DNA of 15,805 nucleotides. Source: a virus (Duplodnaviria > Heunggongvirae > Uroviricota > Caudoviricetes). The stretch lies in the IMG/VR virus record IMGVR_UViG_2541047722_000005, one strand, 5' to 3'. Made by a program: the position numbers and the translations under genes. The notes below the pieces were generated by a model, which saw nothing but the letters and a program-made list of their open reading frames with translations, made no database searches and was not told the origin of the DNA. Positions 1 through 1,460 of the stretch are shown one piece after another (the first letter of the stretch is position 1; each line of letters begins with the position of its first letter).

Positions 1-165
1 CTCATGCTGGCGAACCCAGACACGCAGAGTCTCCGGCGTACAGCCAATCTTTGGAGCAATGGAACAAATTGTCGCCCATTGTGAGTCATATTCGCTCTGA
101 CTTTCCAGAACCATACGGACTGCCCGTTGACGGACTTCGGGGGAAAAACGAGTATTTTTAGTCAT
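1..165 (-). CDS. IS3-family transposase OrfA, N-terminal 55 codons (partial, 3' end outside window)
   Basis: ATG at revcomp 163-165, SD-like AGAGG upstream on the minus strand (revcomp of ~173-177); frame runs open to the window edge; sequence recognised as IS3-family OrfA. Confidence 0.8.
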
Positions 166-219
166 CCTGTTTACCTCTTTCTCAGGAAGTTTAGTCTCCA
201 GGATTCCCGGGGCGGTTCA
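1..219 (-). mobile_element. IS3-family insertion sequence, left end only (IS629/IS1203-like); element continues beyond the window's left edge
   Basis: Minus strand 165..1 translates from ATG (revcomp of 163-165) as [55 protein letters not shown], which I recognise as the N-terminus of an IS3-family OrfA (HTH transposase subunit). The terminal sequence TGAACCGCCCCGGGAATCCTGGAGACTAAACTTCCTGAG (revcomp of 181-219) matches my memory of the IS629 terminal inverted repeat. Exact IS name is from recall, not a search. Confidence 0.8.
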
Positions 220-518
220 GCGCTGTATCGTCGCCGTATTCCCGCATTAACCATGACCGTAGCCCGACGGGGAATTCCTTCTGCGTGAGTGTGCGGGAAT
301 AATTAAAAACGATGCACACCGGGTTTTTACCGCGTTAATGATTCGCGGGTTTATCCCGGTGCGATGGTGGAAGAAACAGGAAGCTGTATTACAGAAAGTG
401 CTACTACTGTATCCCGATGCGATGTATGTAATGTGAGTCAGATAATGGCACAGGATGTGGTGATGTGGCAGTCTGGAACACAGGATATATTGTCAGAATA
501 AGACCCGTAGGAATAAAA

Positions 519-845
519 ATGAAAAGACGCCTTTTACTACTTTTTCTGTTATCTGTCCTGGCAGTGGGATGCTCGCAGCAAAAAGCTGATGAGCCCCGGC
601 AATTAGTGACGGTGTATCCACGATATCCGGAATATGCTGCAGCAAATTATATCAAGGGGCTGGTTGAGGTTAAGTTCGATATTGGTGCTGATGGGACTGT
701 GACACGGATCGTTTTTCTCCGCTCAGAGCCTCATAATTTGTTTCGTGATGAAGTGGTGAAGGCCATGGCGAAATGGCGATTTGAAAAGAATCGCCCCTGT
801 CAGGGAGTGAAGAGACAATTTATCTTTACGCCGTCACGTCCTTGA
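519..845 (+). CDS. Lipoprotein with TonB C-terminal-like domain (108 aa); moron-like accessory gene
   Basis: ATG 519 preceded by AGGA (509-512). N-terminus MKRRLLLLFLLSVLAVGC is a typical signal peptide with lipobox-like LAVG|C, Ser at +2. Residues ~30-100 (VYPRYPEYAAANYIKGLVEVKFDIGADGTVTRIVFLRSEPHNLFRDEVVKAMAKWRFE) align by eye with the E. coli TonB C-terminal domain as recalled (YP..A...I.G.V.VKFD...DG.V......S.P...F..EV..AM..WR.E). The upstream GTG at 465 in the ORF track is rejected as the start. Confidence 0.7.
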   Translation: MKRRLLLLFLLSVLAVGCSQQKADEPRQLVTVYPRYPEYAAANYIKGLVEVKFDIGADGTVTRIVFLRSEPHNLFRDEVVKAMAKWRFEKNRPCQGVKRQFIFTPSRP

Positions 846-937
846 TGCTTCCAGGTAGAGAGGGGCTGGAAGCAGGAGAAAAATGAAAGAGCCAGCGGTT
901 ATATTTTTGTCATGGCTGACGAGGAATGATGGAAGAA

Positions 938-985
938 GGCGTTGTATGCCACACAACGCCTCACTGTTCATTTCTTCTTTTTCTC
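938..985 (+). terminator. Candidate intrinsic terminator downstream of the lipoprotein gene
   Basis: Perfect 8-bp stem GGCGTTGT (938-945) / ACAACGCC (953-960) with 7-nt loop, followed by a T-rich tract tcactgttcatttcttctttttctc. The U-tract is interrupted, so strength is uncertain. Confidence 0.4.
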
Positions 986-1208
986 TGGTGGAACCCGATG
1001 AATAAGAGTTGCACTGGTTTCCGATGAGATGGCGATATACTCGGGCAAAGTATGCTGGCAGTTTTCCAACTGGTCAAAAATACCTGCTCTCGTCTGTTGC
1101 AATGCCTGCAGCATGCGGCGGCAATGCGCCTTGCTTTTACTAACCATCTTTCCTTCCTCTATCAGTCGCTGCGTGAACTCATCATGGAATACCAGGTAAA
1201 TGCGGATG

Positions 1209-1460
1209 TTATCGGTTTTGGCTACGCAGCATAGTACAAAACGGACAGGTGCATCCCGGGACGGGGGAGGCGTCACATGTCCCTGTGATGGTTGTTCCGG
1301 GTAATGTACTGTGTGGGGCATAAAAATGTCCGATAATTTTACTTTCTACCGCAGTTAGTTGATTCGTTGGTCCTGGTAGCACATTGGGCGAGGATTTAAA
1401 TGCCAGGCAACTGAAGGATGATGTCGCAAGGGAGATAGCGAGAATATTTCTGATTTTCAT
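1209..1460 (-). CDS. Hypothetical small secreted Cys-rich protein (83 aa precursor)
   Basis: Minus-strand ATG (revcomp 1458-1460) with AGAGG about 9 nt upstream. N-terminus MKIRNILAISLATSSFSCLA looks like a Sec signal peptide (basic n-region, hydrophobic core, small residue at -1). The mature part ends with a C-x6-C-x-C-x2-C cluster (GTCDASPVPGCTCPFC). No homologue recognised; it sits in the position and orientation that bor occupies in lambda. Confidence 0.35.
   Translation of the reverse strand: MKIRNILAISLATSSFSCLAFKSSPNVLPGPTNQLTAVESKIIGHFYAPHSTLPGTTITGTCDASPVPGCTCPFCTMLRSQNR

What the first reader, a model, noticed from the sequence alone, without database searches (positions are those of the whole stretch)
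519..845. Phage-borne lipoprotein consisting essentially of a TonB C-terminal domain, a candidate TonB-box decoy
The 108-aa product has a lipoprotein signal peptide (LAVG|C, Ser at +2, so probably outer-membrane anchored) followed by roughly 80 residues that align by eye with the C-terminal domain of E. coli TonB, the part that contacts the TonB box of outer-membrane transporters. It lacks the TonB N-terminal membrane anchor and Pro-rich spacer, so it cannot transduce energy. Placed as a self-contained unit between the lysis-side DNA and cos, it has the layout of a lysogenic-conversion moron. One hypothesis is that it sequesters TonB boxes of FhuA/BtuB/FepA-type receptors and blocks TonB-dependent phages or colicins; another is that it modulates iron uptake. 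The function is speculation; the domain similarity is from recall.
Basis: partly seen in the sequence, partly recalled or inferred. Interest (0 to 1): 0.75.

Follow-up and report, generated by a model that had tools for sequence, protein, structure and literature searches.

The report
Phage-borne outer-membrane TonB-domain lipoprotein
A phage-21-type prophage of E. coli carries a small, well-conserved gene for an outer-membrane lipoprotein that is a near-perfect copy of the part of TonB that grips nutrient transporters; it is already annotated as a "TonB family protein", but nobody seems to have tested it, and it may jam TonB-dependent entry of rival phages and colicins.

Summary
Window 519-845 (+) encodes a 108-aa protein with a lipoprotein signal (LAVG|C18, Ser at +2), a 7-8-residue tether and a complete TonB C-terminal domain. 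Evidence: Pfam TonB_C at 49 bits; ungapped alignment to E. coli TonB 151-230 at E 1e-14; AlphaFold model 0.9-1.0 Å from TonB in its FhuA and BtuB complexes.

The gene is real and under selection (dN/dS 0.12 between two E. coli types). It sits on a ~650-bp replaceable cassette between the lysis genes and cos/terminase. It occurs in 1617 of 5426 complete E. coli genomes, including phage 21, Nissle 1917 and UTI89.

The gene is not new: GenBank and RefSeq already call it "TonB C-terminal domain protein" or "TonB family protein". No functional study was found.

Two additions. It belongs to a wider Enterobacterales family of ~110-aa TonB-domain lipoproteins that are mostly chromosomal. The PHROG label "Rz-like spanin" is probably wrong.

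The decoy idea is plausible but untested. Exported TonB fragments are known to inhibit TonB function, and phage 21 itself uses LamB. Weak points: no clear prophage promoter, chromosomal relatives, and carriage by TonB-dependent pathogens. Interest is moderate to high.

The parts
389..518 (+). Cassette-specific 5' flank of the gene. Candidate extended -10 TGTCAGAAT at 491-499; AGGA ribosome-binding site at 509-512.
   Evidence: Homology to phages that lack the gene stops near 387-388. Identity between the 21-type and O157-type is 55% over 389-518 but 77% over 480-518. TGTCAGAAT/TGTTAGAAT is conserved in both types. The RBS is annotated in phage 21. No promoter passed the standard scan.
519..845 (+). 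CDS, 108 aa plus stop: TonB-C-terminal-domain lipoprotein (identical to RefSeq WP_000830178.1 and phage 21 CPT_21_73).
   Evidence: dN/dS 0.12 against the O157-type allele.
519..572 (+). Signal peptide with lipobox L14-A-V-G-C18 (Cys codon 570-572). Ser19 at +2 predicts Lol sorting to the outer membrane.
   Evidence: Pattern matches; the Cys is invariant in 27/27 relatives and none has Asp at +2.
573..593 (+). Short tether, residues 19-25 (SQQKADE), between the lipid anchor and the folded domain.
   Evidence: The 10-residue blocks covering residues 1-20 average pLDDT 53-57, and residues 17-19 are below 50; the first strand is at residues 28-30. Tether length varies from about 8 to 17 residues across the family.
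594..833 (+). TonB C-terminal-domain fold, residues 26-105 (= TonB 153-232). PxYP motif at residues 34-37 (= TonB P161-P164). Conserved aromatics F53, F75, W86, F88, F103 (= TonB F180, F202, W213, Y215, F230).
798..827 (+). Last beta-strand, residues 94-103. It is equivalent to TonB beta3, the edge strand that pairs with the Ton box of transporters.
   Evidence: DSSP strand 94-103 in the high-confidence model. Superposes on TonB chains from the BtuB and FhuA complexes. The role of beta3 is stated.
847..873 (+). Perfect 8-bp inverted repeat GCTTCCAG/CTGGAAGC with an 11-nt loop, 2 nt after the stop codon. No T-run follows.
   Evidence: Read from the sequence. Not reported as a terminator.

Best explanation
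[quoted passage not shown] There a 7-8-residue tether holds a complete TonB C-terminal domain just under the periplasmic openings of TonB-dependent transporters.

It has the Ton-box-binding fold but no link to the ExbB-ExbD motor. It most likely occupies Ton boxes by beta-strand augmentation on its last strand. Targets would be FhuA-, BtuB-, FepA- and Cir-type transporters, and possibly the Ton boxes of incoming group B colicins. This would compete with the scarce native TonB, making the protein a dominant-negative 'dead-end TonB'.

For a LamB-using phage such as 21 this costs nothing in its own infectivity. It would make the lysogen, or the infected cell, less permissive to TonB-dependent phages (T1, phi80 and relatives), group B colicins and TonB-dependent microcins.

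Shown here: the gene, the lipobox, the fold, purifying selection, the cassette structure and the distribution.

Inferred: outer-membrane location, Ton-box binding, inhibition, the exclusion phenotype, and when the gene is expressed.
For: - Fold and motifs: TonB_C hits. Ungapped 80-residue alignment to E. coli TonB at E 1e-14. The model lies 0.9-1.0 Å from TonB as bound to FhuA and BtuB. The last strand and the PxYP motif are retained, with P34 and P37 invariant and Y36 nearly so.
- Location: lipobox and non-Asp +2 residue are conserved across 27 relatives.
- It is not a decaying fragment: dN/dS 0.12 with dS 1.5. Length is fixed at 108 aa in both E. coli types. A Klebsiella phage homologue at 41% identity keeps the lipobox and the same genomic slot.
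- Precedent for inhibition: periplasm-exported TonB fragments block ferrichrome transport and TonB activity. The Ton box pairs with TonB beta3, and Ton boxes are also present in TonB-dependent colicins.
- Precedent for the strategy: the phage lipoproteins Llp and Cor sit in the inner leaflet of the outer membrane, bind FhuA and exclude phages.
- The carrier phage is TonB-independent; its receptor is LamB.
- No dedicated partner gene: the chromosomal contexts of relatives differ. This fits a conserved host target.
Against: - No binding or phenotype data exist, and no paper on this gene was found.
- No convincing prophage promoter or terminator. The gene is on the late-operon strand, so it may be made only during lytic growth, when exclusion is worth less.
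- TonB residues implicated in transporter contacts are not kept. Q160 is Y33 here and varies across the family; R166 is a near-invariant Tyr; R158 is Thr.
- Relatives are ordinary chromosomal genes in Pantoea, Erwinia, Rahnella and Raoultella. A strong constitutive TonB blocker would be costly there.
- The gene is carried by about 30% of complete E. coli genomes, including UTI89 and Nissle 1917. From general knowledge, extraintestinal pathogenic E. coli depend on TonB for virulence.
- Transporters far outnumber TonB (Higgs et al. 2002, listed), so titrating Ton boxes needs an abundant protein.
- No match to known defence families in PADLOC.
Confidence: 0.45

Rival explanations
1. Same outcome, different target. 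The lipoprotein captures the limiting component instead of the Ton boxes. It would pair edge-to-edge with the C-terminal domain of native TonB, or disturb TonB-ExbD contacts, and so trap TonB at the outer membrane.
For: TonB is scarce relative to transporters (Higgs et al. 2002, listed), so titrating it is cheaper. TonB CTD fragments crystallise as dimers (1u07 and 1ihr appear among the hits; their dimeric state is from general knowledge). Postle's group notes that inhibition by exported TonB fragments need not act at transporters and may involve ExbD-TonB contacts.
Against: A 7-8-residue tether at the outer membrane cannot plausibly reach ExbD at the inner membrane. Heterodimerisation with TonB at about 40% identity is undemonstrated. 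The model matches the monomeric, transporter-bound TonB conformation best.
Confidence: 0.15
2. It is not an inhibitor. The protein does whatever its chromosomal relatives do in the envelope, and the phage carries it as a general fitness or virulence cargo alongside iss/bor and sitABCD. Possible roles are binding another beta-strand ligand, an outer-membrane protein or peptidoglycan, or tuning transporter signalling.
For: Stand-alone chromosomal homologues occur in non-phage contexts. Contact residues Q160, R158 and R166 are replaced and family-specific residues are conserved instead (Y39, N43, S69, D/H72). The same prophage carries iss and sitABCD. Carriage in TonB-dependent pathogens argues against strong TonB blockade.
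Against: No alternative ligand is indicated by any result. The link with sitABCD reflects phage lineage rather than function: about 20 sit-carrying phages lack the gene, and O157-type carriers lack sit. The short tether makes reaching the peptidoglycan layer unlikely (inference).
Confidence: 0.25
3. It is a lysis accessory or spanin-type protein, as the PHROG label 'Rz-like spanin' and the position next to the lysis cassette suggest.
For: Best PHROG is phrog_1267, labelled 'Rz-like spanin', E 5e-43. The gene lies downstream of S-R-Rz on the late strand in three phage types.
Against: Pfam finds only TonB_C. The fold is a TonB CTD. Phage 21 already has an annotated i-spanin and o-spanin pair. 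There is no C-terminal membrane segment and no coiled coil. Relatives sit in chromosomes far from any lysis genes. The label most likely spread from neighbouring genes.
Confidence: 0.03
4. It is a non-functional remnant of a captured tonB gene.
For: Older annotations call it a 'partial' or 'truncated tonB-like membrane protein'. Truncated or frameshifted copies exist (P0003, P0005, P0008, P0035).
Against: dN/dS is 0.12. It has acquired a conserved lipoprotein signal. Length is fixed. It is 100% conserved in many genomes. Family members occur across Enterobacterales.
Confidence: 0.03

Closest known systems
C-terminal domain of E. coli TonB (residues ~150-239; PDB 1U07, 2GRX, 2GSK)
   Same: Same fold (rmsd 0.9-1.2 Å) and 38-41% identity. 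It keeps the PxYP motif, the aromatic core (F180, F202, W213, Y215, F230 equivalents) and the beta3 edge strand that pairs with Ton boxes.
   Different: It has no N-terminal membrane anchor and no Pro-rich spacer, so it has no connection to ExbB-ExbD. It is anchored to the opposite (outer) membrane by a lipid. Q160, R158 and R166 are replaced. It ends 4 residues earlier than TonB.
Engineered periplasmic TonB fragments (Howard, Herrmann, Stratilo and Braun 2001; ompT(ss)-TonB33-239 of Postle's group)
   Same: An exported TonB C-terminal region without a motor connection. Such fragments inhibit ferrichrome and ferric citrate transport and TonB activity.
   Different: Those are laboratory constructs. 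They are soluble, longer (at least residues 122-239) and overexpressed. This is a natural gene with only the minimal domain, and it is lipid-anchored.
Phage superinfection-exclusion lipoproteins Llp (T5) and Cor (phi80, N15, HK022, mEp167)
   Same: Small phage-encoded lipoproteins in the inner leaflet of the outer membrane that act on the periplasmic face of a TonB-dependent transporter.
   Different: The fold is unrelated: all top PDB matches are TonB domains and the FhuA:Llp entry is not among them. Llp and Cor are specific for FhuA and protect against the carrier's own kind. This protein would be generic for Ton boxes, and its carrier uses LamB.
Chromosomal ~104-133-aa TonB_C lipoproteins of Enterobacterales (Pantoea, Erwinia, Rahnella, Raoultella; all labelled only 'TonB family protein')
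   Same: Same architecture (lipobox, short tether, one TonB_C domain) at 31-50% identity. Shared invariant residues are C18, P34, P37, V49, D54, G59, S69, P71, W86 and P93.
   Different: They are stand-alone genes among metabolic genes, not in prophages. Their function is likewise uncharacterised.
Lambda-type morons bor/iss and lom
   Same: Small envelope-protein genes placed in non-essential slots of lambdoid genomes. bor/iss lies immediately upstream in phage 21.
   Different: bor is on the opposite strand and is reported to be expressed from the prophage (general knowledge, not checked here). This gene is on the late strand with no verified promoter or terminator.

Membership tests
Pfam TonB_C (PF03544) / NCBIfam TIGR01352 tonB_Cterm | Profile score above the curated cut-off | tested here: met
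   49.2 bits against 24.6; 47.4 bits against 27.1.
Pfam TonB_C (PF03544) / NCBIfam TIGR01352 tonB_Cterm | TonB CTD three-dimensional fold (helix, two-stranded hairpin, helix, edge strand) | tested here: met
   AlphaFold mean pLDDT 86.8. Foldseek 2gsk_B rmsd 1.0 Å with TM 0.92, and 2grx_C 0.9 Å.
TonB energy transducer (NCBIfam PRK10819 equivalogs) | Full-length architecture: N-terminal inner-membrane anchor, Pro-rich spacer and CTD, scoring above the equivalog cut-off | tested here: not met
   45-69 bits against cut-offs of 265-448. Only the last ~85 profile positions match, and the protein is 108 aa.
TonB energy transducer (NCBIfam PRK10819 equivalogs) | Binding of transporter Ton boxes | not testable with these tools
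   Only structural retention of beta3 and PxYP could be shown.
Bacterial lipoprotein (PROSITE PS51257) | Lipobox with Cys at position 15-35, a basic N-region and an uncharged hydrophobic region | tested here: met
   C18 matches PS51257 and the G+LPP pattern. The Cys is invariant in 27/27 relatives. SignalP and LipoP were not available.
Bacterial lipoprotein (PROSITE PS51257) | Actual acylation and outer-membrane location (no Asp at +2) | tested here: inconclusive
   The +2 residue is Ser, and none of the 26 relatives with a PS51257 match has Asp. Location itself needs fractionation.
Llp/Cor superinfection-exclusion lipoproteins | Llp/Cor fold or sequence similarity | tested here: not met
   Pfam finds only TonB_C. 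All top PDB matches are TonB CTDs.
Llp/Cor superinfection-exclusion lipoproteins | Blocks infection through a TonB-dependent transporter | not testable with these tools
   Needs plating assays.
Spanins (Rz/Rz1; PHROG 1267 label) | An i-spanin has a membrane anchor plus coiled coil. An o-spanin is a short Pro-rich lipoprotein embedded in or overlapping Rz. | tested here: not met
   The fold is a TonB CTD. The gene is separate and about 800 bp downstream of the annotated i-/o-spanin pair of phage 21. Only the PHROG label supports membership.
Moron (autonomous insert in a phage genome) | A discrete insert between sequences that are adjacent in related phages | tested here: met
   A 653-bp cassette in the O157-type prophage against 246 bp of unrelated DNA in YYZ-2008, between flanks of 88-90% identity.
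Moron (autonomous insert in a phage genome) | Own promoter and terminator; expression from the prophage | tested here: inconclusive
   No + strand promoter or terminator in the scan. A conserved extended -10-like motif lies at 491-499. The Klebsiella homologue has a hairpin plus T-run after its stop codon. No expression data.
Known anti-phage defence systems (PADLOC-DB) | Match to a defence protein model | tested here: not met
   No hit at E <= 0.01.

The most novel reading that the evidence does not exclude
A temperate phage has taken the transporter-gripping domain of the host's own TonB, via a chromosomal lipoprotein family. It tethers that domain to the outer membrane as a universal Ton-box decoy. 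One 108-aa protein would then give the lysogen simultaneous partial immunity to every TonB-dependent phage, group B colicin and microcin. The chromosomal relatives would be a native, previously unrecognised 'brake' on TonB-dependent uptake.
Probability: 0.3. Interest if true: 0.8.

Novelty: new variant of a known kind. Interest (0 to 1): 0.6.

Why it matters
If the decoy reading is right, this would be a superinfection-exclusion or bacteriocin-immunity mechanism that works by mimicking a host protein rather than blocking one receptor. It would be generic for all TonB-dependent entry routes.

It would be present in roughly 30% of complete E. coli genomes, including classic phage 21 and the widely used strains Nissle 1917, UTI89 and ATCC 25922. 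That bears on three things: the choice of phages for therapy (many use FhuA, BtuB, FepA or similar receptors), colicin and microcin ecology in the gut, and iron uptake in pathogenic strains.

It would also give a function to an uncharacterised family of small lipoproteins in Pantoea, Erwinia, Rahnella and Raoultella.

The test is cheap: one plasmid, a few phages and colicins, and an iron-uptake assay.

If the reading is wrong, the gene is still a conserved, selected and widespread envelope protein of unknown role whose PHROG label should be corrected.

Tried and rejected
- Literature: ten full-text searches found no functional study of this gene. They covered phage 21 + TonB, TonB-like + prophage, WP_000830178, 'tonB-like membrane protein', TonB_C + lipoprotein + phage, and others. 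The phage 21 genome announcement does not mention TonB. Howard et al. 2001 (PMC99666) is not held, so it is cited through papers that describe it.
- Functional coupling with sitABCD was rejected. All six 21-type carrier phages have sit, but about 20 sit-carrying phages lack the gene and O157-type carriers lack sit.
- Fur regulation is inconclusive. Best matches to the 19-bp Fur box are 11/19 (window), 13/19 (O157-type) and 12/19 (Klebsiella), at non-equivalent positions.
- The well-conserved DNA upstream (222-388) is not a regulatory element of this gene. It occurs in 432 phage records, including lambda, almost all without the gene. It has no Rfam match, and its fold energy is not significant (z -1.6).
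- The 45-aa ORF at 364-501 is not conserved in frame between the two types and has no PHROG hit.
- Cys94 as a functional disulfide was rejected: it is Arg in the O157-type and not conserved in the family.
- The first AlphaFold run with 6 close sequences was poor (pLDDT 61). It was repeated with 27 diverse sequences.
- The viral fold library (BFVD) gave no match at E <= 0.001.
- The first attempt to scan genomes with a 12-sequence alignment failed for lack of a conserved stretch. The repeat with 6 sequences found only 4 loci.

Full report
**What the window is.** The first 1800 bases are 100% identical to prophages in E. coli chromosomes (for example NZ_CP099721 and APEC strains). From base 220 on they are also identical to Nissle 1917 and ATCC 11775; the gene itself (519-845) is identical in UTI89 and ATCC 25922. 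Bases 220-1608 are 100% identical to the right end of the classical lambdoid phage 21 (OL657228), up to its cohesive end. Bases 1-219 are the end of an IS3-family element. In this strain it sits between iss/bor and the region of interest. Downstream lie the terminase subunits, portal, capsid and tail genes of a phage-21-type virion.

**The observation.** The ORF at 519-845 (+) encodes 108 aa.
- The N-terminus MKRRLLLLFLLSVLAVG|C18-S-Q satisfies the PROSITE lipoprotein rule and the G+LPP pattern.
- Pfam TonB_C scores 49.2 bits against a cut-off of 24.6. NCBIfam tonB_Cterm scores 47.4 bits against 27.1.
- Residues 24-103 align without a gap to E. coli TonB 151-230 at E about 1e-14.
- A first AlphaFold model from six close homologues was poor (pLDDT 61). 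A second, from 27 diverse relatives, reached mean pLDDT 86.8, with the 10-residue blocks covering residues 31-100 averaging 95-98.
- The second model superposes on TonB taken from the BtuB complex (2gsk_B, 1.0 Å, TM 0.92) and the FhuA complex (2grx_C, 0.9 Å).
- The protein is far below the full-length TonB equivalog cut-offs. It has no membrane anchor and no Pro-rich spacer.

**It is a working gene, not a fragment.**
- A second allele, about 72% identical in protein and also 108 aa with a lipobox, occurs in O157, Stx1a and JLK-2012-type prophages. Between the two alleles dS is 1.5 and dN/dS is 0.12, similar across signal peptide, tether and domain.
- A Klebsiella phage carries a 41% identical homologue that also has a lipobox (LLG|C).
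- In all three phage types the gene lies between the lysis cassette and cos/terminase, on the late-gene strand.
- An O157-type carrier compared with phage YYZ-2008, which lacks the gene, shows a 653-bp cassette replacing 246 bp of unrelated DNA between flanks of 88-90% identity.

**How common and how well known it is.**
- The gene is present in 1617 of 5426 complete E. coli genomes. About 1225 carry the 21-type allele and 392 the O157-type.
- It is found in 218 IMG/VR viral contigs and on at least 1000 contigs in the protein collection.
- It is already annotated as 'TonB C-terminal domain protein' in phage 21, as 'TonB family protein' (WP_000830178) in RefSeq, and as 'partial tonB-like membrane protein' in older records.
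- The domain assignment is therefore not new. Ten full-text searches found no functional study.
- PHROGs places it in phrog_1267, labelled 'Rz-like spanin'. That label conflicts with the fold, with the separate spanin pair in phage 21 and with the chromosomal relatives. I regard it as an annotation error.

**A wider family.**
- An exhaustive profile search and a word-indexed profile search found many proteins of ~104-133 aa with the same architecture in Pantoea, Erwinia, Rahnella and Raoultella, plus one assembly labelled Salmonella.
- Of 27 aligned members, 26 match the lipoprotein rule and none has Asp at +2.
- Invariant positions are C18, P34, P37, V49, D54, G59, S69, P71, W86 and P93.
- These relatives are stand-alone chromosomal genes among metabolic genes, not in prophages.
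- The E. coli phage proteins are 42-50% identical to the nearest family members and 38-41% identical to TonB CTDs. The phage gene was probably captured from this family rather than cut directly out of tonB.
- The viral structure library BFVD contains no similar fold at E <= 0.001. A TonB-domain protein therefore looks unusual for a virus.

**Mechanism.** Established knowledge frames the inference.
- The Ton box of a transporter pairs as a parallel strand with beta3 of the TonB CTD, and Ton boxes also occur in TonB-dependent colicins.
- TonB fragments exported to the periplasm inhibit TonB-dependent transport.
- The phage lipoproteins Llp and Cor sit in the inner leaflet of the outer membrane, bind the periplasmic face of FhuA and exclude phages.
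- The present protein keeps the last strand (residues 94-103), the PxYP segment and the aromatic core. It is tethered by only 7-8 residues to the membrane that holds the transporters.
- Phage 21 adsorbs to LamB, so a TonB block would not hinder its own spread.

The best-supported reading is a dominant-negative 'dead-end TonB' that occupies Ton boxes and lowers TonB-dependent entry of competing phages, colicins and microcins. I give it 0.45.

**Why not higher.**
- Nothing shows expression in the lysogen. No + strand promoter or terminator passed the scan. The only conserved promoter-like feature is TGTCAGAAT/TGTTAGAAT about 20 nt before the start codon, in a 39-nt stretch that is 77% identical between the alleles while the rest of the cassette leader is about 55%.
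- TonB residues Q160, R158 and R166 are replaced, and the Q160 position varies within the family.
- Chromosomal relatives and carriage by strains that, from general knowledge, rely on TonB for virulence argue against a strong constitutive block.
- Transporters greatly outnumber TonB (reference listed). This favours either an abundant decoy or the rival in which TonB itself is captured.

**Rivals.**
- Capture of TonB itself: 0.15.
- A non-inhibitory envelope role inherited from the chromosomal family: 0.25.
- A lysis role: 0.03.
- A dead fragment: 0.03.

**Leads that did not hold.**
- The link with sitABCD reflects phage lineage, not function.
- No conserved Fur box was found.
- The strongly conserved DNA at 222-388 is a general lambdoid intergenic element, also present in lambda, and is not part of this gene's unit.
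- Cys94 is not conserved.
- There is no PADLOC match.

**Verdict.** The gene is already annotated at the domain level, but its function is open. If the decoy works as proposed, it is a new variant of phage outer-membrane exclusion lipoproteins, built from a host-protein mimic. Interest 0.6.

Noticed in passing
window 1-219: End of an IS3-family insertion element (transposase on the minus strand, with programmed frameshift in the full copy). In this strain it is inserted between iss/bor and the conserved intergenic element. Phage 21 and Nissle-type prophages lack it.
   Followed up: partly
window 222-388: A non-coding element more conserved than the neighbouring gene (81-91% between phage types against 73% for the CDS). 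It is present in 432 phage records including lambda (J02459 46873-46974), 933W and VT2-Sakai, nearly all without the TonB-domain gene. It contains a perfect 10-bp inverted repeat, TATTCCCGCA (237-246) / TGCGGGAATA (292-301). There is no Rfam match and the fold z-score is -1.6. Its function is unknown; it may be a recombination boundary or a late-transcript or bor-region regulatory element.
   Followed up: partly
window 968-1321 (-) and 1052-1234 (+): Two ORFs overlap on opposite strands and each matches a PHROG of unknown function (phrog_4843 and phrog_3744, both E about 3e-46), so at least one family is probably a shadow ORF. A further minus-strand ORF, 1209-1460, starts with a signal-peptide-like sequence and has no PHROG or PADLOC match.
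   Followed up: partly
window 1608/1609: Position corresponding to the cohesive end of phage 21 DNA: the match to OL657228 stops at the record end. cosQ, as annotated in phage 21, maps to about 1579-1585. The terminase small subunit starts at 1797.
   Followed up: no
L006 12968-16417 (phage 21) and L007 11038-14487 (host prophage): Phage 21 and the matching prophage at icd carry the sitABCD iron/manganese ABC transporter as well as iss/bor. So the well-known chromosomal sit/iss locus of extraintestinal pathogenic E. coli is phage-21-type prophage cargo. Twenty-seven phage records carry sitABCD.
   Followed up: partly
PHROG phrog_1267: This PHROG family, labelled 'Rz-like spanin' (category lysis), is in fact the TonB-C-terminal-domain lipoprotein family: E 5e-43 with full-length coverage. 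The label is very likely an annotation error that will spread to new phage genomes.
   Followed up: yes
L008 5998-6333, L010 557-913, L012 7001-7333, L013 6001-6399: Stand-alone chromosomal genes for ~110-130-aa TonB-domain lipoproteins in Raoultella, Erwinia, an assembly labelled Salmonella, and Pantoea. Each has different metabolic neighbours (lacZ/lacI, araBA, and others). The family is uncharacterised.
   Followed up: partly
L003 4290-4370 (Klebsiella phage ST13-OXA48phi12.4): The Klebsiella homologue is followed by a GC-rich hairpin and a T-run (GGTCACCtctGGGTGGCTTTTTTAT), a likely intrinsic terminator. The E. coli 21-type gene has only an 8-bp hairpin without a T-run. The annotated start of the Klebsiella gene is probably 11 codons too far upstream.
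   Followed up: no
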